From the NCBI GenBank assembly GCA_963798085.1, contig CAWCRS010000007.1, positions 704,001 through 768,000 on the forward strand: DNA of 64,000 nucleotides, read 5' to 3'. The stretch is from an uncultured Gemmatimonadales bacterium. GTDB taxonomy: Bacteria; Gemmatimonadota; Gemmatimonadetes; Longimicrobiales; RSA9. Positions 4,373-58,795 of the stretch are shown one piece after another. Within the stretch, counting starts at the first letter, position 1; each line of letters starts with the position of its first letter. The position numbers and the translations under genes are program-made. Below the pieces are notes generated by a model. The model ran no database searches, was not told where the DNA came from, and was given only the letters and a program-made list of their open reading frames with translations.

Positions 4373-4707
4373 GCGCGCCCCCGACCCAGCTCGCGTTCCA
4401 GCCCGGACCACAGCTCGAGCAGCGCCGCGCGATGCGTGCGCAATGCCTCCAGGCCGCCGGGCGTCAACTCGAAGCGACGCCGGCGATGCCCGCCACGATC
4501 TTCCTCAGGATCCTCCAGACTCCAGCGCAGAAAGCCCTTCTGCTCGAGTCGGCCCAGCGTGGCGTAGAGCGCGCCACGCGAAACCGGGCGGTCCACGCTG
4601 TCCTCGAGGTAGCGCGCCACGTCCGGTCCGTACGCGCCATCCTTCAGCTGCAGGACGGCCAGCAGCAGCATCTGCTCGAATTCACCGAGCGGGTAGTCGC
4701 GGGGCAT
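4369..4707 (-). CDS. PadR family transcriptional regulator (permease-associated)
   Basis: LGEFEQMLLLAVL, AYG, GALYATLGRLEQKG, RRRFELTPGG; coupled to the permease. Confidence 0.92.
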   Translation of the reverse strand: MPRDYPLGEFEQMLLLAVLQLKDGAYGPDVARYLEDSVDRPVSRGALYATLGRLEQKGFLRWSLEDPEEDRGGHRRRRFELTPGGLEALRTHRAALLELWSGLERELGRGRA

Positions 4708-41904: not shown

Positions 41905-44736
41905 TCAGTTCTCCATGCGCAATGCCCGCACCGGGTCCACGCGCGTGGCACGCCTCGCCGTCAGCACGGCCGCGAACAGCACGGTCAGCGCGAGCAGCAG
42001 CACGGCGGCAGCCAGCAAGGGGACATTCGTCGGACTCACCTCGAAAAGCAGGCGACGCAGCGCCCGCGTGGCCAGCAGCGCACCCGCCAGCCCCGCGGCC
42101 AGGCCGGCGAGGGCGACGCGCATCCCGCCGCCCACCACTTCGCGCGCCACGACCAGCGGCGAAGCACCCAGTGACACGCGCACGCCGATCTCGCGCGTGC
42201 GCTGCGCCACACTCCAGGACATGAGTCCCCACGCGCCCGCGCTGCTGAGCACGAGCGCGAGCAGCGCAAAGAAGCCTACTAACAGCGTGTTGACGCGCGC
42301 CGGCGCCAGTGCCGCAGCCTTGAGCTGGTCCATGATCGCGACGCGGCCGATCACCAGTTCCGGGCGGAACGCGTGAATCGCGGCACGCACGGCCTCCACC
42401 TGCGCCCGCGCGTTGCCCTGCGTGCGCACCACGACCTGCGGGACCTCCAGCGGCGATTGCAGCGTGTGCAGGTACACCTCCGGATCAGGCGCATCCTTGA
42501 GGCTGGCGTAGCGCGTGCCACCCACAACGCCAGTGATGGTAATCCAGGTGTCGCCGCCCAGGCGGATGCGCTGGCCCACTGGATTCTGGCCGGGGAAGAA
42601 GCGATCCGCCAGCGGCCCGTTGATCAGGACCACCGGATCCGCGCCCGCCCGGTCATCCGGAGTGAACATGCGGCCGCTCAGCAAAGGGATGCGCATGGCC
42701 GCGAAATAGCCCGCACTCGCCCTGCGCAGGTTGATCTCGGGCAGCTCGGCCGGCGCGTGCGGTTGCCCCTCGATCTCGAGCTTCGTTGTGATGTTGCTGG
42801 CACCACCGAGCGGCAGGCGTGAAATCTCGCCCGCCGCGATCACGCCGGGCAACGCGGTCAGCCGCGCATGGAGCTGCGGCATGAGGGCAATGCGCTCGGC
42901 CGGATCGCGCGGCAGGCCCGAGATATCGAACGCCAGCGCCTGCGAAGTATCGAACCCCGGATTCACGGCTTGCAGGTTGGCGAAGCTCTTCGCCAGCAGC
43001 AGCGCGCCCGCGGCCACCATGACGGCCAGTGCCACCTCGAACGCGACCAGCGCATTGCGCAGCGACGCCCGCCCCGCGCTCGTCCGACCGGCCGCGCGCA
43101 GCACGGCGGCCGGCGCCGTCCGCAGGGACTGCAGCAGGGGCGCCAGCCCCGCGAACAGGCCTGTCAGCAGCGCGAGCAGCAGTGCGAAGCCGAACACCAC
43201 GGTATCCACGCGGATCTCGTTCCGGCGAGGCAGGTCGGCGGGGAGGAGTGCGACGAGCGCCCGCACGCCCCACCACGCCAGCAGCGCGCCCAGCGCGCCG
43301 CCCAGCAGCGCGAGCAGCAGGCTCTCCGCCAGCGAGGCGCGCGCCAGCCGCGTGCGCGAAGCGCCCAGCGCCGCGCACACCGCCATGTCGCCGCGGCGGG
43401 CGTCGCCGCGCAGCAACAGCAGGTTAGCGACATTGGCGCAGGCAATGAGCAGCACCAGCCCGACCGCGCCGAAGAGCACGCTCAGTGCGGGCCGCACCGG
43501 GCCGACCCTGTCGTCGCGCAGTGGCACGACACGCACGCCGATCCCTTTCATCCGATCAGGATACGCCTGCGCCAGCCTTGCCGCGATCGCGCTCGCCTGC
43601 GCCCTCGCCTCGGTCAGCGTGCGGCCGGGCGCGATGTGCGCGACCAGCTCGAACAGCCGCACCTGCCTGTGCCCCGTCAGGTAGTAGCTGTTCCGCGCCA
43701 GCGGCAACCACACTTCCGCGTCCTCCTCCCAGCGGAACCCCGCGGGCAATACGCCGATCACCGTGACCGCACCTTCTTCGTCCAGCTGCATGGTGCTGCC
43801 GATGACGGCCGGCGAAGCACCGAACCGCCGCTGCCAGAGCGCCGTGCTGATCAGCACGACCGGCGGTGCGTCGGGTTTGTCATCGGCTGCCGTGAAGCTC
43901 CGGCCGATGACAGGCTTCGCGCCCAGCATGGGCAGGAACCCCGCAGAGGCGTAATTGCCGTGCACACGCTCCGGCTCCTGGTCGCCGCGGATCGTCAGGT
44001 TCCAGCGCGGAGTGACGCCGCCCGCCGCGTCCATGGTGGTGAGGTCGTGCACGTAGTCGGCGTACGTGTCGGGCGAGTGCGGGTCGCGCGGGCTGCCGCT
44101 CATCGTGTTGTCGCCCCACACCACCACCAGCCGGTCCGCATCCGCGTAGGGCAGCGAGCGCAGTAACACGGAGTTCACCACACTGAAGATCGCCGTGCTG
44201 GCGCCCAGCCCCAGCATCAGTGTGAGCAGTGCCAGCAGAGTGAAGCCGGGCCGCCTGCGCAGGCCCCGCCATGCGAACCGGAAATCACGGGCCACGTCGT
44301 TCACGCGCCACACTCCTTTCACGAAGGCCATCGACCCCCACAGCGCGCCGCGCAGGGCGGCGGCCGCATGGCGAACACGCGGCGCGAAACGGATGCGGGC
44401 ACACTCAATGACGAGCCCCATGGCACGAAGGGAAAAGCCCGCGGCCGCCAGCAGGCGAGCGGGCCATGCCGGGCGCGCCGCGCGCTGGGCGAGATGGGCC
44501 GCCAGCGCATCCTGGAACGCGGGCTCGAACCACGCTTCGCGCTGCTCCGCGGGCAGCAGTCGGGCCAGCCGTCGCGCCAGTGCGCCCGGCGCGCGTCCGC
44601 TCACCACGTACCCGCCCCAGCGCCAGAATGCGCTTCGCCATGGACCGGTTGACGAGCACGACAGGCGTGCGTAAAACACGAGTCCGCACGGGCACGGTTG
44701 CGGGCGGCAACAGCTCACGACACGACAGCCGTTCAT
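41905..44736 (-). CDS. ADOP-type duplicated ABC permease (start may be GTG at 44604/44607)
   Basis: IFSVVNSVLLRSLPY, LLIACANVANLLL, REIGVRVSLGA, RRATRVDP; ATG 44736 overlaps the PadR stop. Confidence 0.9.
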   Translation of the reverse strand: MNGCRVVSCCRPQPCPCGLVFYARLSCSSTGPWRSAFWRWGGYVVSGRAPGALARRLARLLPAEQREAWFEPAFQDALAAHLAQRAARPAWPARLLAAAGFSLRAMGLVIECARIRFAPRVRHAAAALRGALWGSMAFVKGVWRVNDVARDFRFAWRGLRRRPGFTLLALLTLMLGLGASTAIFSVVNSVLLRSLPYADADRLVVVWGDNTMSGSPRDPHSPDTYADYVHDLTTMDAAGGVTPRWNLTIRGDQEPERVHGNYASAGFLPMLGAKPVIGRSFTAADDKPDAPPVVLISTALWQRRFGASPAVIGSTMQLDEEGAVTVIGVLPAGFRWEEDAEVWLPLARNSYYLTGHRQVRLFELVAHIAPGRTLTEARAQASAIAARLAQAYPDRMKGIGVRVVPLRDDRVGPVRPALSVLFGAVGLVLLIACANVANLLLLRGDARRGDMAVCAALGASRTRLARASLAESLLLALLGGALGALLAWWGVRALVALLPADLPRRNEIRVDTVVFGFALLLALLTGLFAGLAPLLQSLRTAPAAVLRAAGRTSAGRASLRNALVAFEVALAVMVAAGALLLAKSFANLQAVNPGFDTSQALAFDISGLPRDPAERIALMPQLHARLTALPGVIAAGEISRLPLGGASNITTKLEIEGQPHAPAELPEINLRRASAGYFAAMRIPLLSGRMFTPDDRAGADPVVLINGPLADRFFPGQNPVGQRIRLGGDTWITITGVVGGTRYASLKDAPDPEVYLHTLQSPLEVPQVVVRTQGNARAQVEAVRAAIHAFRPELVIGRVAIMDQLKAAALAPARVNTLLVGFFALLALVLSSAGAWGLMSWSVAQRTREIGVRVSLGASPLVVAREVVGGGMRVALAGLAAGLAGALLATRALRRLLFEVSPTNVPLLAAAVLLLALTVLFAAVLTARRATRVDPVRALRMEN

Positions 44737-45059
44737 GCGGGCGCCAGCCCTTCATCGCCTTCCGCGGCGGTGATGGCGCTCACATAGAACTCGCGGCACG
44801 CCCGCCATGCGCGGCCGCCGTCCGCCGTGAGATGGTAGTTGCGCTCCTTGATGATCTGGCCGTCCACCACGTCCTGTGTGTACCAGCCTTTCACCAGGCC
44901 GGCACTCTCCAGTCGCGACATCATCTGGTAGAACGCCGGCCCCGACTGGCGCACGCGGTAGCGTTTCAGCCCGGCGCGCAGTTCTCTGCCGGCGCGGTCG
45001 CCCGCCAGCAGCGCGCCCAGCACCACGAACTGCAGATGACTCAGTTCCGGCAGCTTCAT
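44733..45059 (-). CDS. PadR family transcriptional regulator
   Basis: LSHLQFVVLGAL, FYQMMSRLESAGLV, YHLTADG; GACGT-T-ACGTC palindrome upstream at 45114-45124. Confidence 0.85.
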   Translation of the reverse strand: MKLPELSHLQFVVLGALLAGDRAGRELRAGLKRYRVRQSGPAFYQMMSRLESAGLVKGWYTQDVVDGQIIKERNYHLTADGGRAWRACREFYVSAITAAEGDEGLAPA

Positions 45060-45207
45060 GTCCGGCTCCAGGAAAGCGGCAGCGTGGGGCATGCGGCCCG
45101 ACACACATAATGCGACGTTACGTCACTGCGCGCTATGCTAGTCGGCCGGTGCGCGACCCGCACACAGCCGCGGGATGGAAGCGGACGGACGCGGGCCGGA
45201 GGGAACG

Positions 45208-45236
45208 AAAACGGGGACGGCAGCACCGCCCCCGTT
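45208..45236 (-). terminator. Rho-independent terminator candidate downstream of the third permease
   Basis: Minus strand reads AACGGGGGCGG-TGCTG-CCGTCCCCGTT ending in a short T run. Confidence 0.55.
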
Positions 45237-45370
45237 GCACCGCCGGAGTCTGCGTGGGCCGGTGAAGGGTGACCCAGCTACCGGGTGTAATCGGCCGCAG
45301 CGGCAGCCGCCCAATGGCGTTGCACTGCCTCGAAAGAGCGCTGCGGTTCTGCGTCGGCGCGCTTGCCGGA

Positions 45371-48176
45371 TCACTCCTGGCGCAGCGCGAGGACCGGGTC
45401 CAGTCGTGCGGCGCGCAGGGCCGGGAGCAGCGAGGCCAGACCCGCGACCAGCAGGAAGAGGATCGTGATCGCGCTGTACGTGAGCGGGTCGGTGGCGCTC
45501 ACACCCACCAGCAGGCTGCGCATGACACGCGTGAGTGCCACGGCCCCCAGCAGACCCACGCCGGTGCCCAGCAGACTCAGCGTCAGGCCCTGTCCGACAA
45601 TGAGCCGCAGGATGCTCGACTCGGGCGCGCCGAAGGCCATGCGCACGCCGATCTCCGAGGTGCGCTGCTTCACCACGTAGGCCAGCACGCCATACAGGCC
45701 AATGGCGGCCAGCACCAGCGCCAGCACGGCGAACGTGGCAATGAGCGTGAGCGCGAAGCGCGTGGGCGCCATGGCGAGATTCACCAGGTCCGTGAGCGGC
45801 GCGACATCGGCGATAGGCAGCAGCGGGTCGACTTCCCTGACCTGCTGTTTGGCCGCCTGCACGAGACGCAGCGGATCGCCTGTGGTGCGCACGATCCAGC
45901 GCAGGGCGCCGAAGCTGCCCGCGTAGCCCGGGGTGAAGTAGATGGCCTCCGGCCCTTCGCTGGTGAGCGAGCGCTGCAGCTGGTGCCGCACCACGCCAAT
46001 GATCTGTACGGGCACAGCCTCCGGCGTAGTGACGCGGATGAGGATCTGCTGGCCCACGGCGGATTGTCCGTGAAACGCGATCTTTGCCAGCTTCTCATCC
46101 ACCACCACGACCGCCGCCGCCGTCTGCTCATCCGCTTCCGTGAAGGTGCGTCCTTCCACCAGCGGCGTGCGCAGCGCCTCGAAATAGCCCGGCTTCACGG
46201 CGCGGTAGTCCGCCTGGTGGAAGGCCTGCGGATCGGTGGCTGCCTCGAGCGTGCCCCAGCGGCCATTGAAGTACTGGCCATCGAGCGGCAGCGGGTTGGC
46301 GGCGGTGACTGCCGTGACGCCGGGCAGGCCGGCCAGCCGGTCGTGCACCCGGGTGAAGAAGGCGGCGCGTACAGCGGGATCGCGATACCGCGGGCCCGCC
46401 GGCGCGGCGTTCAACGTGAGTACGCCCTGCGCATCGAAACCCGGGTCGACCCGCTGCAACGCCACGAACGTGCGCATCATGAGACCGGCGCCAATCAGCA
46501 GCACGAGCGAGAGCGCGACCTCAGCCACGATCACGCTGCTGCGCAGCAGGCGGTTGGCGGAGAGGCCGGGCGTGCGCCCGCCTTCGCGCAGCACACCCGC
46601 CACATCCGCCCGGGAAGCGCGCAGCGCGGGCGCCGCGCCGAACAGTGCTGCGCAGGCGAGCGCCGCTAACCCGGTGTATGCAAGTACCCAGCCGTCCAGG
46701 CCGATCGCGCCCACGCGCGGCAGCTGCTCCGGCTGCAGCACGCGCAGCAGCTTCACGCCGGCCAGCGCCAGCCCGATGCCCAGCAGGGAACCCGCAGCGC
46801 TGAGCAGCACGCTTTCCACGAGCATCTGCCGGATCAGGCGCCAGCGGCGCCCGCCCACCGCCGCGCGCACCGCCAGCTCGCGCTCCCGCGCGCTGGAACG
46901 CACCAGCAGGAGATTGGCCACGTTGGCGCACGCAATGAGCAGCACGAACACCACCGAGCCCATGAGCGCCCAGAGGATGGGCCGGACGGGGGCCACCAGG
47001 TCCTCGTGCATGGGAATCACATCCAGCGCCAGCCCCGCCGTTTCCTTGATGGTGAAACGCTGGCGCAGGTCGGCGGCAATGCGATCCATGTCCTGCTGCG
47101 CACGCGGCACGGTGGCGCCGGGCCGGAGCCGCCCGATCACGCGCAAGAACACGTTGTTACGGTTGGCGTTCACGTAGTCGATGCGAGCCGCCGTCCACAT
47201 GTCGACGTGCGACTGCATCCCGGCGGCTGCGGGCATGAGCAGCTCGAAGTCGGGCGGCGCCACGCCCACTACCTCGGCAGGACCGCTGCCCAGGTCGACG
47301 ATCCTGCCGATCACGTCGCTGCGCCCGCCAAAGCGCGAGCGCCAGAACCCATTGTCCAGGATCACCGCCGTGTTGAGCCGCGCCGGCGCAGACGCTGGGG
47401 CAGCGGCAGCGCCCTGGGTCGGCCGCGGCGGCACCACGCCGTCCGCGTCGTTGAAGGCGCGGCCCAGCACCGGGCGCACGCCCAGCACCGAGAAGAAGTT
47501 GGTGGTGACACCACCTGCGCGGATCTGTGCCGGCTCGCCGTCACTCGTCAGCGCGTCCGCGTACGTCCACGCACCCGCGAAATCCTGGAACTGCGTGGAC
47601 ATTTGCCGATAGTCCAGGAAGTCGGGGGGCGACGTGGGGAAGTACTTCACGCCCCGTCGAGTCAGCTCGGCCCACACCAGGGTCAGCTGCTGCGGATCCG
47701 CGTACGGCAGCGGCCGCAGCAGCACGGCGCGCACCACACTGAAGATGGCCGCGTTGGCGCCAATGCCCAGGCCGATGGTGAGCACGGCCGCAATCGTGAA
47801 ACCCGGCGCGCGCAGCAGCGAGCGCAGACCGTGTCGCACATCTCTCGCCAGCCCATTCATGATCATCATTCCGCGAAACGAGGATCCGCTTGCATCGTCC
47901 GCAAAGCGCGGGTGATGCCCCGATCTGCCCTGCCATCGCTCCACCACGACGCCGCGCAGCAGGTCCAGCAGCGTGCCCGCCCAGAGGACCGTCAGCGCAC
48001 GCACGCCGTTGCGCTCCATGGCATCCTGTGCGCGCTGCCCGAACACGTGCGTCATTCTCGCGGCCGTAGCGCTCGCGCAGCGCGGCCGGATACACGCGGA
48101 GCAGCATTGCGTACACGCGCTCCGAAAACCGCACCGCGCGCGTGCGACTGGGCATGCGACCCGGCCGTCCGCTCAT
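45371..48176 (-). CDS. ADOP-type duplicated ABC permease with +1 frameshift at ~48056
   Basis: N-terminal LLRVYPAALRERYGRE joins MTHVFGQRA when one A is removed (GAG A ATG); the body has all ADOP hallmarks. Confidence 0.88.
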
Positions 48177-48180
48177 TGCC

Positions 48181-48582
48181 TCACACCGCCCGCGCCCGGC
48201 CCGCGAGCAGCTTGCGCGACCTCGCCGTCGCCACTCTCGCCGCCAGCCGCGACGCCTCCGCTTCCGCTACCGTGCGACCGAGCGGCGTCAGCGCGTAGTA
48301 ACGCCGGCGCGCATCGTCGGCTTCATCCGGCCGCTCGTCCCGCTCCTCGATGAGTCCCTGGTCCACCATGCGGAAAATTGCGCGATACAACGTGCCCGCG
48401 TGCAGCGTGACCGCGCCATCCGTGCGCTCTTCAATGTCGCGCAGGATCGCGTAGCCATGGCGAGGCCCATCGGCCAGGCTGAGCAGCAGCTCGAACCCGG
48501 CTTCCGTCAGCGGCAGGAACGAATCAATGGGCGGCGTCGTCGCCTTCTTCGTAGCAGTGCGTGCGTTCTTTCTCGGTGTCAT
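48181..48582 (-). CDS. PadR family transcriptional regulator
   Basis: LPLTEAGFELLLSL..GPRHGYAI, GTLYRAI, RRRYYALTPLG; imperfect CTATGT...ACATAG inverted repeat at 48600-48635. Confidence 0.93.
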   Translation of the reverse strand: MTPRKNARTATKKATTPPIDSFLPLTEAGFELLLSLADGPRHGYAILRDIEERTDGAVTLHAGTLYRAIFRMVDQGLIEERDERPDEADDARRRYYALTPLGRTVAEAEASRLAARVATARSRKLLAGRARAV

Positions 48583-49342: not shown

Positions 49343-49526
49343 GGTTCCGTGTCTGTGCGGCGAGCGGTGAAATCGGGCAGAATGCCCGATCGCGGTTGCG
49401 ATAGCGGACCGGGCGTGCGACTGTCACAGCCGGCCGGCATCATTACTCCCGGATCACGCATGTGGACCGTACGCGCCACTCCGGTCAGGGTCCACAGGCC
49501 GGCATCGGCAACCGCCCTCAAATGGC

Positions 49527-52500
49527 ATGGCTCGACTTCGTCTGGTTCTGGCAACGGACCCGTGGCTCCTTCTGGAAGACGCGGCGGATGCATTCCTTTC
49601 GCCTGCGCCCGCCTCGCCTGCAGTTCCCTTTCCTTCGCCACCCTTTCTGCTGGCGCTGCGTCAGGGCGGTCTGCGTGACGACCTGATCGCAATGGCGGCT
49701 GCACGCGGGGTGCGCGGCTGGTTCGATCCGCCTCTCTGTCTTTTTTCGCAGCTGCCTGAACTCCTGGGTGTGACGCGCGCCGCGTGCGGCGATTACGAGC
49801 GCCTGGTGCTGCTGGCGAGCGTGCTGCGCAGCGCTGCGCCGCGCGTGTTCTCGCGTCTGTCCCGACCGGACGCGTTCGTGGACGCGCTGGACCGTCTGTT
49901 TGGCGAGCTGGCAGGCGAGGGCGTGACGGCGGACGCGTTGCCGGGCGCACTCGCGCGCGCCGGGCGCGATGCGTTCGAGATCAACCGTGATGCCGACCTC
50001 GCCGCCGCGTACGACGCCTACCTTGCCGCGCTCGCTGCACAGGGTCTCCGTGATGATCGTGCGCGCTGGATCGACGCCGCTGCCGCGGTGCGCAACGATG
50101 CGCCGGGGCTGGCGCGACGACTCGGCCAGCGGCGCGAGCTGCGGCTCTTCGGACTGCAGGATCTGCGCGCCGGCTGGCGCACGCTGCTCGAGGCATTGCG
50201 CGCTTCGCCCGCGCTCGATGCCATCACCGTGCACACGTCCGCGCCGCTGCACACCGACGAAGCGCTGGATGCGGACGTGGTGACGGTGCTGGACGACACG
50301 TCGTCGCTTGCCCGCCGCTTGTTCACTGTTCGTGATGCACCATTTCAGGCGACGACGCCGCGTCTGGAAATCTTCTCCTCGCCGGATGCGGAGCGTGAGG
50401 CGGAGCAGGTGGCCGTGCGCGTGCGCGCGCTGCTCGATGGCGGCGCGCCGCCCGAGCGCATTGCCGTGGTGGCGCGCAGCGCGCGGCCCTGGGTGGACCT
50501 GGTGCTGGACGCGCTGGCCCACTGCGGTGTGTCTGCCACGGCCAGGCGAAGGCACAGCTTCGCCAGCATTCCGGTGGTGCGCTCGGTGCTCTCGCTGTTT
50601 GCCGTGGCCAGAGACGGCTGGCCTCGGCATGGCCTGGTCGAGCTGGCCGAGCAGCCCTACCTCGGCATCGATCTCGACGCGACCGTGCTCAACTACATCG
50701 GCTACCGGCGCCGCGTCGAAGGGCTGGATGACTGGATGGCCGCGCACGAGCGGCTGCTCGCGGAGGTGGAAGCGCGGGAGCGCAAGCATGCAGACGACGA
50801 TGCGGAGCCGGATCGCCGTCGCATGTCACTGCCTCCCGGGTGGCGCGTGCGCCGCGCGGTGGAAGCGTTCCGCCGCTTCGCCGGTTTCGCGCGGCCACTC
50901 GATTCGGCGCGGCCGCTGCACGCGTGGCTGGACTGGCTGCTCGCATTGCTCGGTGCCGATACGCGCGTGGAAGACGATGCGTCGTTGCCCGCGCAGGCGT
51001 GGGATGTGGCGCGCCACGTGTACGACGCGCCCGATGGTTGCGAGGATGTGGTGCGTCTGGACGCTGCCGGATTGCGTGGCGCACAGAGCGTCATTGCCGA
51101 GTGGCGTCGCGCGCTGGAGCGCTGGCGTGACGTGGCCCCACTGAGCGTCGCCGGGTTCGCGGGGCGGCTGCAGTCGATGCTCTCCGGTGATGCGGCGCTG
51201 TGGACGCGGGCGCGGCGCAGCGTGCAGGTGCTGGAGGGACTGGCCGCGGCGCACCGCGCCTTCGATCACGTCTTCCTTGTGGGCATGGCGGGCGGTCGCT
51301 TCCCGCTGCCCATGCCGCGCTCACCGATTCTCGGCGAGATCGAGCGAGCGCGGCTGGCGTCGGTCCTGCCGCTGGACACGAGCGAGCGGTGGGACACGCG
51401 CGAGCGCGAGCTGTTCCGTGTGCTCGTCGCGGGTGCGCGCGCCTCGCTGACCGTGAGCTGGCCACGCCTGGACGAGCGCGGCGGCGAGACCGTGCCATCC
51501 GCATTCCTGGAAGAGCTGCTCGATGTGGCCGGCGCCCTGCCGCTCGATCTTCCCACGCACGAGGTGCGCACGATGGGCGTGCCGCTGATCGCGGACGCGG
51601 CCGCGGTGCCGCTGGCGCTGCACGCGGCGACCATCGAGGGCGAGCGCGCGACCGGGCGGCTCTCGCCCTGGAACGGCCTGATCACAAACACGGCATTACG
51701 GGCGGCGCTGGGCGAGCGGCTGGGACCGGAATACGTGTGGAGTCCCACGCAGCTGGAGAGCTACGCGAAATGTCCGTGGGCCTGGTTTTCCGCCCGCCTG
51801 CTGCACCTGGAGAAGCTGTCGGATCCCGATGTCGACATCGATCCACGCGCCCGCGGCAGCCTTCTGCACGACGCGCTGCGGCGCTTCTTCGACAGCGCCC
51901 GCGAACGCTTCGGCCGGCCGGTGTTCCTGCTGCCCGGGGACCTCGATGCCTGGGCGCGCACACTGCTGCACGAATCGCTGGAAACGGCGCTCGCCGCTGT
52001 GGCCGATGAGGTGTGGCTCGGCCAGCCCGCGCTGCGCCTGACCAAGCGCGCCGAGCTGCGGCGCATGCTCGACCGCTTCCTCGAAGGTGAAGCCGAGTAC
52101 AACGAAAAGCTGCTCGATCGCCCGCACTGGACGTACACGCGCACGTTGCGCATGGCCGCGGCGGCGCACGAGCTGGCCTTCGATGAACTGCGCATCCGGG
52201 CAGGCGGCGAGATGCTCCGTCTGCGCGGCACCATCGATCGCGTGGATGTCAGCTGCGACGACCGGGTCGCGGCGGCCGACTGCGTGGCAGCGATCGACTA
52301 CAAGACGACGAAGTGGTCCACGCCCGGGTCAGGCGAGGGCCTGGCGTGGAGCGACGGTGTCGTGCTCCAGGTGCCACTCTATGCGGAAGCGCTGCTGCAG
52401 CTGCGTCCCGGCTCGCGCGTGGCGAGGGTCGCCTATCGCGCGATCCGCTCGCGCGACCTCGTGCACAAGCTCGATCTGCTCGAAGTCAAAGGCAGCAGGG

Positions 52501-52694
52501 GGCACCTCGAGCTGACGCGGAACACGGAGGGCGAGCAGAAGCTGGAGCGCGCGCTGGACGCGGTGGCGCAGCACGTACGGGCCGCGCGTGCCGGTGAGTT
52601 CCCCGCTGATCCGGCGCCCTCGTGCAAGTGTCCGACGTTCTGTCATGCGTGGGAGATCTGTCGCGTGCGCGGTGGGCCGCAGGCGAAATGGTGA
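49527..52694 (+). CDS. AddB/RexB/AdnA-like subunit: helicase-like body without Walker A + PD-(D/E)XK nuclease with 4-Cys staple
   Basis: REAEQVA, ERIAVV, FDHVFLVGM..GRFP, SPTQLESYAKCP, HELAF, LRGTIDRVD, IDYKT, LQVPLY, C-terminal CPTFCHAWEIC. Confidence 0.85.
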   Translation: MARLRLVLATDPWLLLEDAADAFLSPAPASPAVPFPSPPFLLALRQGGLRDDLIAMAAARGVRGWFDPPLCLFSQLPELLGVTRAACGDYERLVLLASVLRSAAPRVFSRLSRPDAFVDALDRLFGELAGEGVTADALPGALARAGRDAFEINRDADLAAAYDAYLAALAAQGLRDDRARWIDAAAAVRNDAPGLARRLGQRRELRLFGLQDLRAGWRTLLEALRASPALDAITVHTSAPLHTDEALDADVVTVLDDTSSLARRLFTVRDAPFQATTPRLEIFSSPDAEREAEQVAVRVRALLDGGAPPERIAVVARSARPWVDLVLDALAHCGVSATARRRHSFASIPVVRSVLSLFAVARDGWPRHGLVELAEQPYLGIDLDATVLNYIGYRRRVEGLDDWMAAHERLLAEVEARERKHADDDAEPDRRRMSLPPGWRVRRAVEAFRRFAGFARPLDSARPLHAWLDWLLALLGADTRVEDDASLPAQAWDVARHVYDAPDGCEDVVRLDAAGLRGAQSVIAEWRRALERWRDVAPLSVAGFAGRLQSMLSGDAALWTRARRSVQVLEGLAAAHRAFDHVFLVGMAGGRFPLPMPRSPILGEIERARLASVLPLDTSERWDTRERELFRVLVAGARASLTVSWPRLDERGGETVPSAFLEELLDVAGALPLDLPTHEVRTMGVPLIADAAAVPLALHAATIEGERATGRLSPWNGLITNTALRAALGERLGPEYVWSPTQLESYAKCPWAWFSARLLHLEKLSDPDVDIDPRARGSLLHDALRRFFDSARERFGRPVFLLPGDLDAWARTLLHESLETALAAVADEVWLGQPALRLTKRAELRRMLDRFLEGEAEYNEKLLDRPHWTYTRTLRMAAAAHELAFDELRIRAGGEMLRLRGTIDRVDVSCDDRVAAADCVAAIDYKTTKWSTPGSGEGLAWSDGVVLQVPLYAEALLQLRPGSRVARVAYRAIRSRDLVHKLDLLEVKGSRGHLELTRNTEGEQKLERALDAVAQHVRAARAGEFPADPAPSCKCPTFCHAWEICRVRGGPQAKW

Positions 52695-55600
52695 GCGGAA
52701 CGTCCGCGCGCACCGGTGCGGCTGGCGGGTTCCGGCCGCCCACGCCATCGCAATGGGAGGCGATCGCGGCGACCGACGACCACCTGCTGGTCGTCGCCGG
52801 CGCGGGCACTGGCAAGACGCACACGGTCGTCGGTCGCGTGCTCTATCTGCTGGGCGTACCGATCAACGAGCAGACGTACGCGCGGCCTGTCGGCCTGCCG
52901 CAGATCGCGGCCATCACCTACACGAAGGAAGCGGCACGCGACCTGAAGCAGCAGCTGCGCGACGATCTGCGCGCCGCGGGCCGGCGCGAGCTGGCCTGGC
53001 AGGTGGACCTCGCCCGTATCGGCACCATCCATTCGTTCTGCGCCGAGCTGCTGCGCGAGCATGCGCTGCGCGCGGGCGTGGCGCCGGCTGACACCGTACT
53101 GGAAGAGGGCGAAGCACTGGAGCTGGCCACACAAGCAGCGCGCGACGCGCTGGTCGCTGCGCTCGGGCAGGGCGGCATTGCCGGACTGGACGCACTGCTG
53201 GGCGACCGGCGTACCAGTGATATCGACCGCTGGGTGGTCGACCTGATGCGGAAGCGCGATCTGCTGCGCGCGCTGCACGACCGCTGGCGCGACGCCGACG
53301 TCGGCAGTGAAGCCGACGCGCCCACCACCGAGGAGCGCGCGCTGATTCTGCTGGCGAGCGCCGCAGCCGAGCGCTACGACCGCGTGCTGGCCGACAGCGG
53401 CCGCATCGACTACGACCACATGATCCACTGGACCCGCGACCTGCTGCACCGCGACGCGCACGTGCGGGCCGCTCTGCGGCAGCGGCTGCACACGCTGATC
53501 GTGGACGAATTCCAGGACGTGGACCCGATGCAGAAGGAGATCGCCTACGCCATCGGCGCCGTGGGCGAGGCCCGCGCGGACACGCCTCGCCTGATGCTCG
53601 TCGGCGATCCCAAACAGAGCATTTACAGATTCCGCGGCGCGGACGTCAGCTCGTGGAACAGCGTGCAGCGCGATTTCGAGGAGCAGGGCCTGGGCCGGGT
53701 GCTGCCGCTGCGCGAGAATTTCCGCAGCCTGCCACCCATTCTTGCCATGGTGGAAGCGTCGGTAGGCGCCGCCCTCGATCAGCCGATCGATGGCCAGGCA
53801 CTGCGTGACTACGAGGTGCCATTCCTGCCGGTTGCTGCACAGCGTGCGTCAGCGGAAGCGACCGCGGTCGAGTTCCTGCTGGTCCCGGCCAATGCGGCCG
53901 GCAAGAGCCGCCGGGCGGACGACGTACGCGTGGTCGAAGCCCAAGCGATCGCGGAGCGCATGCGGCAGCTGCACGCGGATCGCGTTCGTTTTTCCGACAT
54001 GGCGCTGCTCTTCGCCACGTGGACATCGGTGCAGATCTATCAGGATGCGCTGCGGCGCGTGGGCATTCCCTTCTACACGCTGCGTCGCGACGGCTTCCTC
54101 GACACCCGCGAAGTCCACGATCTGGTGCTGGCCCTGGAAGTCGTGCGCGACCCGACCGACGAGCGCGCGTTGTTCGGCTTCCTGCGCAGCCCGTTCATCG
54201 GTGTCAGCGACGAGACACTGCTGCGCGTGGCCGATCGCAAGCGCCGGCCTTCGTGGCGACACCTGTGCGACGTTGATGCCGACGCCGCCGGCGAGAGCGG
54301 CGCGATGGAAAGCGCGGAAATGGAGCGGCTTGCCTTCGCGCAGCAGCTGCTGGACCGCTACACGCGGTTGCGCGACCGGCTGTCCAGCGCGGAACTGCTC
54401 GACGCGCTGCTGCGCGAGACGGGCTTCCTTGCGCATCTCCAGCTGCGAGGCGAGGCGGGCAGTCAGGCGCTGGCCAACGTGCGGCAATTCATCGGACTGG
54501 CGAGGGCCACGCCCGACGTGAGTGTGGGCGATTTCATCCGCATCCTGCGCGAGCAGCGGGAGCGCGGCGATCGCGTGCCGGAAGCCATACTGTACGCCCG
54601 CGACGACGAGGTCGTCACAATCACGTCGATCCACGTGGCGAAGGGTCTGGAATGGCCGGTCGTGTTCTGGGCGGATCTGTCGCGCGGGCCAGTCACATTC
54701 TCCAGCAAACTCGTGGTTGGTCGCAGCGAAATACGACTGGGCGAGCCCGACATCGACGCGGATGACCAGCCGGATCCGCGCTGGGGCGCGCTGCGCATGA
54801 GCGTGATCGACGAGGAGTACGCAGAACACAAACGCCTGGCTTACGTGGCGGCTACGCGGGCGCGCGACCGCCTCATCCTGTGTGGCATACCGATGGGAGG
54901 CACCGGTAGCGGCAGGGACAAGCCGCCGAGCGACAGACGGCGCGAACCGATCGCGAAGCTGTTCCTGTCGCGTTTCCCGCAGCTGGCGAACGCGCGGTCC
55001 GGTGACCTGGTGGAATTCGCGGGCCGCGATACGGAAGGCGAAGCGCGTGCCCGGAGGCACGCGGCCCTCGTGCACGTGGCGACGCCATCCGAGCCGGCGC
55101 CGGCGTACCGGCCACCCAACCGCCTGTTTGGCCAGACCACGGAGGAAGCGCCGCAGCCCTGGCCCACGCTCGATCCGGCAGCCATCGAATTGCCGCTCGA
55201 ACCCGTCGCGGCCGCTGCGGGTCCGCCCCGCCATTCGGCCACCGAGTTCCTCACCTACACGCGCTGCCCTCGGCGGCACTGGTTCAAGTACGTGGTCGGC
55301 ATTCGTGAGCCGCCGCTGGCCGCTGCCGAGCGAGATGCGCTGATCTCGGCCGTGCAGCGCGGGCAGATCGTGCACGATGTGCTGGAGCGTTTGCGCGAGG
55401 AGGCGGACCTCGACAGCCTGCTCGAGGATGCCATCGGCCGCTGGGACGAGAACGCGCCAGCGCCCGAGTCGGACCGCGGGTCCGCGTATCGGGCGCACCT
55501 GCGGGACGAAGTCAGCCGGGTGGTCGAGCACCCTGACTACATTGAGTTAGCCAGCCGCCCGGGGGCGCGCCACGAGCTGCCCTTTCTGTACGTCGCCGCG

Positions 55601-56446
55601 GATGGCGTGGCGGGGCAGGGCAGCATCGACCTGGCGGTCCCGGACACGGACGCCGCCGGGGCGCCGGGCATGACGCTCCTCGATGTGAAGACCACGCAAT
55701 GCGACGCGGCGGGCGCGCGCCTGAAGGCAGAGCAGTACGCGCCGCAGCGCGACGTGTACGTGACTGCCGCGACGGCAATCGCGGGTCTGCCCGTGCACCG
55801 CTTTGCGTTCCAGTTCACGCGCGCCGCCGTGCAGCTCACGCAGGACATCGACGCGTCGGGCCGCGCCGCCGCCGCAGGGCGCTTCGCGGAAAGCGCGCGT
55901 CAGATTGCAGAAGAGCACGCGCCCTTGACGCGCTTTCCGCAGGAATGCCGCTTCTGCGGTTATCGCAAAGTGCGCCTGTGTCCCGGCGCGCGCTTCGATC
56001 CACCCGGCCTGGATGATCTGTTCGCACGCCTGGCGCGCGATCGCTTCCGTTCCGGCTTCAGCCTGCAGGCCAGGGAGCGCGCGTATCTGCAGACGCATGG
56101 CATCGACAGCGTGCTGGAGCAGGCGAGGCGTTTCGTGCAGCAGCGGCTGGCGCCCGCGTCGCCGGCGCGCGATGGCCGGCAGACGCCCTGGCGAGGGCAC
56201 CCCGTGTTCGTGGCGCAGCACGGAACCGCGACCTGCTGCCGCTCGTGCGTGGAGCGCTGGCACGGGATCAGTCGCGGCGTGGCGCTCACCACGGAACAGC
56301 AGGAGTACGTGCTGCGCGTCATCGAACGCTGGCTGCGCGCGCAGGCGGAGACATCGGCGGGGACTGCCGACGACTCCGCCACGGCAGGCGATGATGCCAC
56401 GCGCGGCAGACGAGCACGCGACGGCTCACAGCTCGAGCTGCTCTAG
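52688..56446 (+). CDS. AddA/AdnB-like UvrD helicase + PD-(D/E)XK nuclease fused to a C-terminal DUF4186-like domain
   Basis: AGAGTGKT, TIHSFC, DEFQD, VGDPKQSIYRFRGAD, NFRS, IHVAKGLE, YVAATRARD; nuclease RCP..ELPF..IDL..DVKT..CRFC; from 56009 LFARLARDRFRS...DGRQTPWRGHPVFVAQHGTATCCRSCVERWHG. Confidence 0.9.
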   Translation: MVSGTSARTGAAGGFRPPTPSQWEAIAATDDHLLVVAGAGTGKTHTVVGRVLYLLGVPINEQTYARPVGLPQIAAITYTKEAARDLKQQLRDDLRAAGRRELAWQVDLARIGTIHSFCAELLREHALRAGVAPADTVLEEGEALELATQAARDALVAALGQGGIAGLDALLGDRRTSDIDRWVVDLMRKRDLLRALHDRWRDADVGSEADAPTTEERALILLASAAAERYDRVLADSGRIDYDHMIHWTRDLLHRDAHVRAALRQRLHTLIVDEFQDVDPMQKEIAYAIGAVGEARADTPRLMLVGDPKQSIYRFRGADVSSWNSVQRDFEEQGLGRVLPLRENFRSLPPILAMVEASVGAALDQPIDGQALRDYEVPFLPVAAQRASAEATAVEFLLVPANAAGKSRRADDVRVVEAQAIAERMRQLHADRVRFSDMALLFATWTSVQIYQDALRRVGIPFYTLRRDGFLDTREVHDLVLALEVVRDPTDERALFGFLRSPFIGVSDETLLRVADRKRRPSWRHLCDVDADAAGESGAMESAEMERLAFAQQLLDRYTRLRDRLSSAELLDALLRETGFLAHLQLRGEAGSQALANVRQFIGLARATPDVSVGDFIRILREQRERGDRVPEAILYARDDEVVTITSIHVAKGLEWPVVFWADLSRGPVTFSSKLVVGRSEIRLGEPDIDADDQPDPRWGALRMSVIDEEYAEHKRLAYVAATRARDRLILCGIPMGGTGSGRDKPPSDRRREPIAKLFLSRFPQLANARSGDLVEFAGRDTEGEARARRHAALVHVATPSEPAPAYRPPNRLFGQTTEEAPQPWPTLDPAAIELPLEPVAAAAGPPRHSATEFLTYTRCPRRHWFKYVVGIREPPLAAAERDALISAVQRGQIVHDVLERLREEADLDSLLEDAIGRWDENAPAPESDRGSAYRAHLRDEVSRVVEHPDYIELASRPGARHELPFLYVAADGVAGQGSIDLAVPDTDAAGAPGMTLLDVKTTQCDAAGARLKAEQYAPQRDVYVTAATAIAGLPVHRFAFQFTRAAVQLTQDIDASGRAAAAGRFAESARQIAEEHAPLTRFPQECRFCGYRKVRLCPGARFDPPGLDDLFARLARDRFRSGFSLQARERAYLQTHGIDSVLEQARRFVQQRLAPASPARDGRQTPWRGHPVFVAQHGTATCCRSCVERWHGISRGVALTTEQQEYVLRVIERWLRAQAETSAGTADDSATAGDDATRGRRARDGSQLELL

Positions 56447-56459
56447 TCCGGAGGCAGAC

Positions 56460-57572
56460 ATGGCAATCACGAAACTGCAGCGCTGGCTCGATCTGGTCGC
56501 ATTTCTCGTGAGCCGGCGCATGCCCGCCACATTCGAGGAGATCATTGAGCACGTGCCGGCGTACAGCGGCGCAGGCTCCGGCGACATGCGCGCCGGCGAG
56601 TCGGTGCGGCGCATGTTCGAGCGTGATAAGGACGAGTTGCGCGCAATGGGCATACCGCTGCAGACAGTGCCGTTCAGCATCGGCTTCGGCAGTGAGGCGA
56701 TCGAAGGCTACGCCATCGACAATCGCGACTTCTACCTGCCGTGGCTGCGTCTGGTCGAGCAGCTCTCGCCCGGAGGTCAGTACGCGGATCGCAACCGTAC
56801 AGGCGAGGTCGAGATCACACCGGCGGAGGCGCCGCTCGTCCTGGAAGCGCTGCGCCGCGTGTCGCAGCTGCCGGCGTCACCGCTGGCCAGAGAGGCGAGG
56901 TCGGCGTTCCGCAAGCTGGCTTTCGATCTCGATCCGGATGCGTTCGCCGCCGACTCGCCGGTGCTGTTCGTCGAGCGACCGGAAGCAGAGGAGCTGGTCG
57001 AACGCCTGCGCATGCTTTCCGATGCGCTGCTCACGCGCAAGCGTGTGGCCTTCACCTATCACGGCATTTACAGAGGCGAAGACACCGATCGCAGCGTGCA
57101 GCCGTACGGCCTGCTGTTCCAGGAAGGCCACTGGTACCTGGTGGCGCACGACGCCGAGCGCGAGGCGGTGCGCGTGTTCCGCGTCGGCCGCATGGACGCA
57201 CTGCGCGTGAATCCGCGCGCTCCACACACGCCCGACTACGAGATACCGGCCGGGTTCAAGCTGGATCCATGGGTGGGCCGCAAGGCATGGGAGCTGGGCG
57301 ATCTCGAGGAGAAGCCGATCGAAGCCGATGTGCGCTTCCGCTTCCCGCGCTCGCTCTGGGCGGAGCGCAACGGACACGGCGCGCTGGTACGCGAGCTGGA
57401 GGGCGGCGACACGGTGCGACGATTCCGTGTCTATCAGGTAGGCGCGTTCCTGCGCTGGCTGCTGGGACTCGGTGGTGAAGCCGATGTGCTCGAGCCGGCC
57501 GAACTGGCGCAGCAGTTCCGCGAGCTGGCTGCGGATGTGGCCCGCATTCACGGTGGAGGCGATGATGCCTGA
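56460..57572 (+). CDS. WYL domain regulator, PafB-like (wHTH-WYL-WCX)
   Basis: RRMFERDKDELRAMGIP (PafB signature), RSVQPYGL..GHWYLVAHD..RVFRVGRM, WCX-like tail; GGAGG RBS. Confidence 0.9.
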   Translation: MAITKLQRWLDLVAFLVSRRMPATFEEIIEHVPAYSGAGSGDMRAGESVRRMFERDKDELRAMGIPLQTVPFSIGFGSEAIEGYAIDNRDFYLPWLRLVEQLSPGGQYADRNRTGEVEITPAEAPLVLEALRRVSQLPASPLAREARSAFRKLAFDLDPDAFAADSPVLFVERPEAEELVERLRMLSDALLTRKRVAFTYHGIYRGEDTDRSVQPYGLLFQEGHWYLVAHDAEREAVRVFRVGRMDALRVNPRAPHTPDYEIPAGFKLDPWVGRKAWELGDLEEKPIEADVRFRFPRSLWAERNGHGALVRELEGGDTVRRFRVYQVGAFLRWLLGLGGEADVLEPAELAQQFRELAADVARIHGGGDDA

Positions 57573-58728
57573 GCCGGCACAGGTTCGCCTCGAACGCCTG
57601 CTGTATCTGCTGCCCGCCGCGGCGCGCGACGGCGGCGCCCGCCTCGATGAGCTGGCGCGCGCGCTGGACGCATCCCCAGCCGATCTGCTGCGCGACATCC
57701 AGGAAGCCACGGCCCGCGCTTTCTACTTGCCGCCCGGCCAGGCCGATTCCATCCAGATCACCATCGAAAAGGATCGCGTGCAGGTCTTTGCCGGGCGCCA
57801 GTTCCAGCGGCCTGTCCGGCTCTCGCAGCGGGAAGCGCTCGCGCTCGGCCTCGGCCTGCGCATCATGGCCGCCGAGCGCGAAGACGCGGCCGGTCGCAAC
57901 ACACTGTTGGCGCTGGCCTCGCGCATGGAGCAGTCGCTGGCCGTGCCCATGGTGCGCGAGGCGCCACGCGCCATGCCCGGCGCCCCCGTCCCGGCCGAAG
58001 AAGCCGCGCCGTACGGCGCAGCCGAAGATCTGGCACCGCCGCCGTCTTTGCAGGCGCCGCGCTTTCCATTTTTCGCCCGTCCCTCGCCGCCGGCCCGCGA
58101 GCGCCAGTCCGCAGCGGCAGGTGGCATCGGCACGCCGCCGCCCATTGTGCTGCACATCGAGCAGGAGCGCGGTCCGGTCAAGGTGGAGCTGGGTGAGGAC
58201 GCGTTCCGCGGCATCATGGCCGACGGCGTGCGCGAGCACCGCCGGGTAACACTGAGTTATCTGAGGCCCGGCGCCCGTGCGCCGGAACCGCGTACGGTCG
58301 AACCGCTGCGCCTGGTCTACGCCAACGGTCGCTGGTACCTTGCGGCGCAACCGGTACCGGGAGACGAGCCGCGCATCTACCGCCTCGACCGCGTGCTCGG
58401 CGCGCGTCTCGAGGCCGAACATTTCGAGCCCGGCCCGATCGACATCAGCAGCTTCATTGATGAGGCCGGCCGCGCGTACAGCGCGCGCGACGCGGTGGTC
58501 GCACAGGTTCGCTACTCGCCTCGCGTCGCCCGCTGGGTCAGCGAGCGCACGCGCCAGGCGGCCTCGCCCGACGGCAGCATCACCGTCGAGCACAGCGTGG
58601 CTGACCCGGACTGGCTGGCGCGCCACGTGCTGCAGTACGGCGCCGACGCCGAAGTTGTCGGGCCGCCGTCACTCCGCGAACACGTCGCATCCATTGCACG
58701 GTCACTCGCATCTCACCGCGGAGATTGA
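57565..58728 (+). CDS. WYL domain regulator, PafC-like (wHTH-WYL-WCX)
   Basis: RLERLLYLLP, RPVRLSQREALAL, RTVEPLRL..GRWYL..RIYRLDRV, WLARHVLQYGADAEVVGPPSLR; overlaps the pafB-like stop. Confidence 0.88.
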   Translation: MPEPAQVRLERLLYLLPAAARDGGARLDELARALDASPADLLRDIQEATARAFYLPPGQADSIQITIEKDRVQVFAGRQFQRPVRLSQREALALGLGLRIMAAEREDAAGRNTLLALASRMEQSLAVPMVREAPRAMPGAPVPAEEAAPYGAAEDLAPPPSLQAPRFPFFARPSPPARERQSAAAGGIGTPPPIVLHIEQERGPVKVELGEDAFRGIMADGVREHRRVTLSYLRPGARAPEPRTVEPLRLVYANGRWYLAAQPVPGDEPRIYRLDRVLGARLEAEHFEPGPIDISSFIDEAGRAYSARDAVVAQVRYSPRVARWVSERTRQAASPDGSITVEHSVADPDWLARHVLQYGADAEVVGPPSLREHVASIARSLASHRGD

Positions 58729-58795
58729 GAAGGGCTCGGAGAACGGAGTTCTTGTTTTGTTGCTTACCGCGGAGAACGGGGAGTTGAAATGCGAA

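What the first reader, a model, noticed from the sequence alone, without database searches (positions are those of the whole stretch)
49527..58728. Self-contained DNA-end processing and sensing operon: AddAB/AdnAB-like helicase-nuclease coupled to a PafBC-like WYL pair, without pafA
Seen: four co-oriented genes with overlapping or ~13-bp junctions (nuclease subunit, helicase-nuclease, PafB-like, PafC-like). Known: actinobacterial PafBC is a LexA-independent, ssDNA-activated DNA-damage activator normally encoded beside pafA in the Pup-proteasome locus, and AdnAB is in its regulon. Inference: here the resection enzyme that makes ssDNA and the WYL sensor that reads it share one operon in an apparently non-actinobacterial genome. 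That could form a feedback loop for damage response or anti-phage DNA-end surveillance.
Basis: partly seen in the sequence, partly recalled or inferred. Interest (0 to 1): 0.85.

Follow-up and report, generated by a model that had tools for sequence, protein, structure and literature searches.

The report
Mycobacterial-type DNA alarm in Gemmatimonadota
A little-studied soil-type bacterium carries the two-protein single-stranded-DNA sensor PafBC, described so far in mycobacteria and their kin, in one operon with an enzyme that chews back DNA ends, behind the special promoter that PafBC reads, and the same promoter sits before its CRISPR genes, so the sensor probably switches on itself, the enzyme and part of the immune arsenal.

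Summary
The four co-oriented genes are real: addB-like, addA-like (with an unnoticed C-terminal DUF4186), pafB, pafC. The genome is Gemmatimonadota. The WYL pair are PafB and PafC orthologues (best PDB hits, tree, DNA- and ssDNA-binding residues kept; heterodimer model passes). No pafA was found; pafB (67 of 251 phylum genomes) never met the Pup ligase (7 of 251). New here: the mycobacterial PafBC promoter layout (TGTCR-N11-YAnnnT) lies 84 nt before addB, and at that exact spacing before pafB in 23 of 68 related loci, before addB in 7 of 10 pafB-positive versus 0 of 3 pafB-negative relatives, and before type I-G cas7 in 5 of 5 versus 2 of 23 loci. recA mostly lacks it and carries a probable LexA repeat. 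addAB lies near pafBC in 20 of 68 loci, in four arrangements. The unit is not self-contained: the genome has lexA, a second addAB, and further boxed genes. Best reading: an ssDNA-activated, self-inducing PafBC regulon aimed at end-processing and defence genes. Nothing is shown in cells. This scan saw the operon and the cas promoter before, on other DNA. No paper found.

The parts
49422..49443 (+). PafBC-type hybrid promoter: -26 element TGTCA (49422-49426), 11-nt spacer, -10 hexamer CATCAT (49438-49443)
   Evidence: Layout equals the M. smegmatis consensus tGTCgg(N10)tA(N3)T; matrix score 19.7 against 1.4-8.2 at shifted spacers; sixth-best intergenic site of the genome
49251..49272 (+). Second, imperfect copy of the box (last T of the -10 missing); doubtful
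49527..52694 (+). addB-like subunit, 1055 aa: no P-loop, C-terminal PD-(D/E)XK nuclease with candidate Fe-S cysteines (C749, C1035 or C1033, C1039, C1045)
   Evidence: PF12705 E 6.5e-31; addB TIGR models below cut-off; no PDB sequence hit; motifs
52691..56446 (+). addA-like subunit, 1251 aa: SF1A motor (Walker A at 36, Walker B at 271), PD-(D/E)XK nuclease with four cysteines (C859, C1086, C1089, C1097)
   Evidence: best PDB hit B. subtilis AddA E 1.2e-45, AdnB entries 1e-22 or weaker
56012..56335 (+). DUF4186 domain fused in frame to the C-terminus of the addA-like protein
   Evidence: PF13811 E 9.5e-45; same fusion in the same-genus genome G001; no second copy in G000; Atlas gives only DUF4186 clusters
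56460..57572 (+). pafB orthologue, 370 aa (winged HTH, WYL, WCX)
   Evidence: Best PDB hits M. smegmatis PafB 7p5x/9fnd; recognition-helix R51/R55 and WYL R211, Y226, R234, R238, R241, R244 align with Msm R46/R50 and R181, Y196, R204, R208, R211, R214
57565..58728 (+). pafC orthologue, 387 aa (HTH_PafC, WYL, WCX; a proline-rich insertion in the linker)
   Evidence: PF19187 above cut-off; best PDB hits 6sj9 and 7p5x PafC; PafC clade of the tree
58730..58763 (+). Terminator-like hairpin and T run directly after the pafC stop
   Evidence: 6 such sites in the region against 3.6 +/- 2.1 in shuffles, so only its position is telling

Best explanation
A Gemmatimonadota PafBC regulon, uncoupled from the Pup-proteasome. 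One transcript runs from the boxed promoter at 49422-49443 through addB, addA, pafB and pafC (inferred). PafB and PafC form a heterodimer (modelled). Single-stranded DNA binds the WYL domains (inferred from conserved residues); PafB's HTH then reads the TGTC element and PafC's HTH bridges to sigma region 4, so the housekeeping polymerase starts at promoters with a -10 but no -35 (inferred from the mycobacterial mechanism). Output: more of an accessory AddAB-type helicase-nuclease, more PafBC (positive autoregulation, unlike mycobacteria), and scattered boxed genes, chiefly nucleases, a vWA protein and type I-G CRISPR-Cas. recA, lexA and dnaE2 stay under a separate LexA-type control. That the AddAB product feeds the sensor is plausible and untested.
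For: Orthology. Heterodimer: ipSAE 0.63, best of 3 controls 0.00; the mark was reached by 116 of 157 solved complexes and 2 of 215 mismatched pairs; runs share at least 60% of contacts, partner pLDDT at least 63; a like complex is solved, so this shows likeness only. Box: 23 of 68 pafB upstream regions at spacer 11, 0-3 at the nine other spacers, shuffle mean 0.32. With a matrix trained on pafB sites only, 48 other genes in these loci score 13 or more against 3-5 at shifted spacers (669 genes). Where pafB directly follows addA it has no box of its own (0 of 8; also in the window). addB has the box in 7 of 10 pafB-positive and 0 of 3 pafB-negative relatives, also when unlinked; in G001 addB, pafB and a relocated addA each have one. 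Phylum sample: strict pattern 47 matches in 67 pafB-positive genomes (control 11) against 37 in 184 others (control 40). cas7: score 12 or more in 5 of 5 against 2 of 23 loci, boxed copies scattered over the cas7 tree. recA: box in 1 of 29, CCGAA-N6-CCGAA repeat in 11 of 29.
Against: No expression, binding or genetic data. G026, G286, G114 and G125 carry boxes before typical target genes but no WYL gene was found in them. addB has no box in 3 of 10 pafB-positive relatives. DUF4011 helicases have the box in only 1 of 4 pafB-positive loci. In G000 the genome-wide excess is modest (19 intergenic sites of 17 or more against 4-7) and several are copies of a dispersed repeat. The PafC D62 to SigA S446 contact is not kept (Q in PafC; E in the sigma factor). 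The window's -10 starts with C, not T. Kin are not independent and the cas and addB sets are small.
Confidence: 0.74

Rival explanations
1. The pair binds the same box but represses (its own operon, addBA, cas) until ssDNA releases it, as CapW or BrxR do.
For: A box before the regulator's own genes is common for repressors; targets include defence genes; PADLOC matches CRISPR-associated WYL models.
Against: The site is non-palindromic with a fixed 11-nt distance to a -10 hexamer, the layout of sigma adaptation; the proteins are PafB and PafC orthologues; no canonical -35/-10 promoter was found in the region (a weak test at 70% GC).
Confidence: 0.1
2. PafBC here is an ordinary repair regulator; the operon is just a regulator beside one of its targets, with no feedback, and the cas boxes are incidental.
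For: AdnAB and RecBCD are known PafBC targets; linkage is variable and absent from 13 long loci; pafB occurs in 25 of 36 family genomes, this addB clade in 14 of 36.
Against: Core repair genes (recA, uvrA, uvrB, ruvB, ruvC, recN, lexA) have no box in G000; pafB itself is boxed, whereas mycobacterial PafBC levels do not change; cas boxes follow the host's pafB, not cas ancestry.
Confidence: 0.12
3. Chance neighbours; the box is a general promoter element unrelated to PafBC.
For: Boxes exist in a few genomes where no WYL gene was found.
Against: addAB genes of several clades lie near pafBC in 20 of 68 loci; the excess of the pattern over its control is confined to pafB-positive genomes.
Confidence: 0.04

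Closest known systems
Actinobacterial PafBC (M. smegmatis PafB-PafC, PDB 7p5x/9fnd; A. aurescens fusion, 6sj9)
   Same: Tandem pafB-pafC, HTH-WYL-WCX, recognition-helix and ssDNA-binding residues, promoter layout TGTC-N12-TAnnnT, an end-resection enzyme among the targets, LexA in the same cell.
   Different: Other phylum; no pafA or proteasome link; box before pafB itself (23 of 68 loci) whereas mycobacterial levels stay constant; recA and uvr genes mostly unboxed; regulon looks small and includes type I-G cas; D62-S446 contact not kept.
AddAB (B. subtilis, PDB 3u44) and AdnAB (M. smegmatis, 6ppj)
   Same: Two-gene pair, one SF1A motor plus two PD-(D/E)XK nucleases, Fe-S-type cysteines in the motor-less subunit.
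   Different: Below all addA/addB equivalog cut-offs; four cysteines also in the motor subunit's nuclease (9 of 18 aligned rows); DUF4186 fusion; a second, unboxed addAB pair in the same genome.
DdaA of Moraxellaceae (PMC12392091) and DriD of Caulobacter
   Same: WYL activator tying DNA-damage sensing to CRISPR-Cas or restriction genes (DdaA).
   Different: Homodimers on palindromes about 50 bp upstream; that paper says DdaA may not use sigma adaptation. Here a heterodimer and a -26/-10 hybrid site.
CapW / BrxR
   Same: WYL-WCX ssDNA sensors beside defence genes.
   Different: Single-gene repressors; the pair here are PafB and PafC orthologues.

Membership tests
PafBC | Tandem PafB and PafC, each HTH-WYL-WCX, grouping with the respective actinobacterial subunit | tested here: met
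   tree of 141 rows splits B from C at 100 support with actinobacterial rows on both sides (no DriD or CapW outgroup in it)
PafBC | PafB recognition-helix arginines R46/R50 | tested here: met
   R51/R55, invariant in 20 aligned rows
PafBC | WYL ssDNA-binding residues | tested here: met
   PafB R211, Y226, R234, R238, R241, R244; PafC R273/R276
PafBC | Hybrid -26/-10 promoter before target genes | tested here: met
PafBC | Heterodimer | tested here: inconclusive
   Model passes (0.63 against 0.00) but a like complex is solved, so it may be from memory
PafBC | PafC HTH to sigma region 4 contacts (D62; SigA R416, R442, S446) | tested here: inconclusive
   R442 kept, S446 is E, D62 is Q; R416 not checked; the sigma gene is frameshifted in this assembly
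PafBC | Linked to pafA / Pup-proteasome locus | tested here: not met
   none of the 7 Pup-ligase genomes is among the 67 pafB genomes
PafBC | recA and core repair genes in the regulon | tested here: not met
   recA boxed in 1 of 29 relatives (one more, G029); none of the repair genes found by motif in G000 except ku
PafBC | ssDNA-dependent transcription activation | not testable with these tools
   needs biochemistry
AddAB | Motor subunit with Walker A/B and RecB-type nuclease; partner without motor, with Fe-S nuclease | tested here: met
   (Fe-S inferred from cysteine spacing)
AddAB | Score above the addA/addB equivalog cut-offs | tested here: not met
   228 of 708 and 35 of 904 bits
AddAB | Chi-regulated resection of double-strand ends | not testable with these tools
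   needs biochemistry
AdnAB | Nucleotide-binding motor-like domain in both subunits, closest likeness to AdnA/AdnB | tested here: not met
   No P-loop in the first subunit, no PDB hit for it, AddA scores far above AdnB for the second; AdnA binds AMPPNP

The most novel reading that the evidence does not exclude
In Gemmatimonadota, PafBC has become an immune-priming alarm rather than a repair master switch: DNA ends of an invader or of the chromosome are opened by the accessory AddAB, the ssDNA activates PafBC, and sigma adaptation turns up PafBC itself, AddAB and type I-G CRISPR-Cas together, a positive loop in which newly acquired cas operons gain the box in hosts that have PafBC.
Probability: 0.35. 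Interest if true: 0.8.

Novelty: new variant of a known kind. Interest (0 to 1): 0.62.

Why it matters
Sigma adaptation has been shown only in mycobacteria. The same proteins and the same promoter geometry across a second phylum, without the proteasome that shuts the mycobacterial response down, would make the mechanism portable and old, and would give simple tests: which enzyme supplies PafBC's ssDNA, how a self-inducing WYL switch turns off, and whether an ssDNA activator raises CRISPR immunity. The box also lets one read the regulon off any Gemmatimonadota genome and names uncharacterised genes (vWA, Pua-like, ARPP-1, DUF2779) as candidates for DNA-stress or defence roles.

Tried and rejected
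RNA evidence: no RNA holder listed; no bearing either way. A broad mycobacteria-like regulon: rejected, recA and most repair genes unboxed. DUF4011 helicase as a general target: not supported, 1 of 4 pafB-positive loci, 1 of 18 others. AdnAB membership: rejected. recBCD: recC not found. A known PADLOC system: only generic UvrD and WYL hits. DUF4186 function: Atlas returned only DUF4186 clusters; four papers hold the term, listing only, none about it by title. Simple regular-expression counts over all G000 upstream regions showed no spacer peak; the signal needed the matrix and the relatives. Canonical sigma-70 promoter scan: none found. Earlier-finding look-ups by sequence and by place returned nothing.
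Full report
Observation. The four genes are as described: addB-like 49527-52694, addA-like 52691-56446, then 56460-57572 and 57565-58728, with junctions of -4, +13 and -8 bp and a terminator-like hairpin right after the last stop. GC is about 70%, like the rest of the window up to 58 kb. Pfam gives PDDEXK_1; UvrD-helicase, UvrD_C, PDDEXK_1 and an unnoticed C-terminal DUF4186; WYL+WCX; HTH_PafC+WYL+WCX. The closest relatives of the third protein come from Gemmatimonadota (Longimicrobiales nearest), the next from Actinomycetota. The genome (90% complete) has lexA, a second addAB pair on another contig, no other WYL gene, and neither Pup ligase nor recC was found.

The WYL pair. The best solved relatives are M. 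smegmatis PafB for the first and PafC for the second, ahead of other WYL structures. PafB's DNA-reading arginines and all six WYL residues shown to matter for ssDNA binding align with identical residues. In a quick tree of 141 proteins from the 80 loci, B and C separate at 100, and the Gemmatimonadota B and C copies each form their own clade (97, 96; one row is labelled Planctomycetota) beside the actinobacterial ones, which fits an old presence in the phylum; the tree has no outgroup and names no donor. A heterodimer model scored 0.63 against 0.00 for the best of 3 controls; that mark was reached by 116 of 157 solved complexes and 2 of 215 mismatched pairs, runs agreed in at least 60% of contacts, partner pLDDT at least 63; PafBC is solved, so the pass shows likeness, not binding. 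One contact is not kept: PafC D62 is Q, and SigA S446 is E in the housekeeping sigma factor, while R442 is kept. pafB was found in 25 of 36 family genomes and 67 of 251 phylum genomes; Pup ligase in 7 of 251, none of them pafB-positive.

The helicase-nuclease. The second gene has Walker A and B and a RecB-type nuclease and is nearest to B. subtilis AddA (E 1e-45; AdnB 1e-22). The first has no P-loop and no PDB sequence hit. Both fall below the addA/addB cut-offs. Both nuclease domains carry four suitably spaced cysteines; in the motor subunit these are kept in 9 of 18 aligned rows. This addB clade was found in 14 of 36 family genomes, so it is accessory. The DUF4186 fusion was seen only here and in same-genus G001.

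Synteny. Of 68 Gemmatimonadota loci around pafB (80 fetched; 11 actinobacterial and 1 labelled Planctomycetota set aside), 20 hold addAB genes: 8 upstream co-oriented as in the window, 8 downstream co-oriented, 2 upstream and 2 downstream on the other strand; 13 long loci have none and 35 are too short to tell. Several addAB clades take part. Among the handle genomes 7 of 27 pafB-positive relatives show the link within 10 kb; the two sets overlap and must not be added.

The promoter. 84 nt before addB lies TGTCA-N11-CATCAT (49422-49443), the layout of the mycobacterial consensus tGTCgg(N10)tA(N3)T (PMC8635444). The pattern TGTCR-Nx-YAnnnT occurs before pafB in 23 of 68 loci at x=11 and 0-3 at the nine other spacers; shuffles give 0.32 (I allowed C at the first -10 position after seeing the window's site). 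It is missing where pafB directly follows addA (0 of 8, and in the window), as one operon predicts, and also where addBA follows pafBC (0 of 8), where addB mostly has its own. A matrix trained on the 34 pafB sites finds 48 other genes among 669 (3-5 at shifted spacers): addB, vWA, Pua-like, ARPP-1, RmuC, RNase_H_2 nuclease-helicase, DUF2779, metallophosphoesterase and exonuclease genes. addB is boxed in 7 of 10 pafB-positive and 0 of 3 pafB-negative relatives; in G001, where addA has moved away, addB, addA and pafB each have a box. The second addAB of G000 has none. Across 251 genomes a strict pattern gave 47 matches in 67 pafB-positive genomes (control 11) and 37 in 184 others (control 40) (kin are not independent). 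Over 61 relatives a looser pattern matched 46 genomes at spacer 11 and 23 at spacer 12.

The regulon. In G000 the best intergenic sites precede a vWA gene 10 kb downstream, a DUF4011 helicase, this operon and the type I-G cas7 gene; weaker ones precede ku-ligD and a Fic/methylase pair. The genome-wide excess is modest (19 against 4-7 at score 17 or more) and a dispersed repeat mimics the box. cas7 scored 12 or more in 5 of 5 pafB-positive and 2 of 23 pafB-negative loci, and also beside the fused pafBC of G032; about five of the negatives are not first in their operon. Boxed cas7 copies are scattered over the cas7 tree next to unboxed ones from pafB-negative hosts (FastTree, two short rows). 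DUF4011 did not generalise (1 of 4). recA was boxed in 1 of 29 relatives but had a CCGAA-N6-CCGAA repeat in 11; in G000 that repeat precedes lexA, recA and genes that I read by eye as gyrA, dnaE2 and a UvrC-like nuclease, and is absent from the window's promoter. Against: G026, G286, G114 and G125 have boxes but no WYL gene found.

Mechanism. Shown by sequence: gene order, orthology, conserved residues, the box and its distribution. Inferred from mycobacterial work: ssDNA activation and sigma adaptation (PMC8635444, PMC11804915). Inferred here: one transcript, positive autoregulation (mycobacterial PafBC levels do not change; PMC8682763, PMC8223512), a split of labour with LexA, and a lean towards end-processing and defence genes. 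Speculative: that AddAB supplies the signal, and how the loop shuts off without the proteasome.

Known and new. AdnAB and RecBCD are PafBC targets, and DdaA is a WYL activator of CRISPR-Cas and restriction genes by another promoter layout (PMC12392091). Reviews treat PafBC as actinobacterial and only note WYL-WCX proteins elsewhere. No held paper has both PafBC and Gemmatimonad*; searches listed none on this arrangement by title or abstract start. The library lacks most subscription papers. I read passages, not whole texts, of PMC6789036, PMC8635444, PMC11804915, PMC8682763, PMC8789073, PMC8223512, PMC12392091 and PMC7617703, and no supplements; the phylum survey in the supplement of PMC6789036 may list such proteins. 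The scan has noted the operon with its promoter (e1-4753033) and boxed cas operons (e1-7863413, e1-7863406, e1-2379479) on other DNA; I saw these after my own tests, and they are not independent proof. Counts include unpublished genomes G015, G016 and G019, and include G114; the addB and cas7 comparisons do not rest on them.

Verdict. Real, conserved, and a new variant of a known system: PafBC with its own promoter type in a second phylum, without pafA, self-boxed, and pointed at an accessory AddAB and CRISPR-Cas. Interest 0.62.

Noticed in passing
G000 C7:1216959 (recA), C7:1102854 (lexA), C3:531045, C7:1887966, C7:1201902; loci L155-L184: Direct repeat CCGAA-N6-CCGAA before lexA, recA and apparent gyrA, dnaE2 and UvrC-like genes, and before recA in 11 of 29 relatives: a candidate LexA box of this lineage. 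One paper search listed nothing on it.
   Followed up: partly
G000 C2:228761-228900 and about 20 further near-full copies on C1, C3, C12: Dispersed repeat of about 135 bp with inverted ends, some copies in tandem; its ends mimic the PafBC box.
   Followed up: partly
window 56012-56335: DUF4186 (Cys/His-rich) fused to the AddA-like protein here and in G001: a hint that this unknown family acts on DNA or with repair enzymes.
   Followed up: partly
window 58885-64000: Lower-GC stretch after the operon: a remnant that looks like an IS110 transposase (by eye; no Pfam hit), a 227-aa orphan, a 557-aa protein with a weak GapS1 match, and a DDE_3 transposase.
   Followed up: partly
L257:9104-10376 (G000 C7:771103-772375): vWA gene with the best box of the genome, split by a frameshift; the housekeeping sigma gene and cas7 are also split, so the assembly has indel errors.
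   Followed up: partly
L061:8215-19656 (G032): Naturally fused PafBC (790 aa) divergent from a cas operon with GSU0053, GSU0054 and RAMP genes, box facing the cas genes.
   Followed up: partly
L077, L079, L083, L084, L041, L045: ARPP-1 and Pua-like genes, often boxed, run in line with pafBC in several relatives: possibly an undescribed module.
   Followed up: no
window 1541-4707, 41905-48582: Repeated PadR plus long ABC-permease-like gene pairs, judged from the translations only.
   Followed up: no
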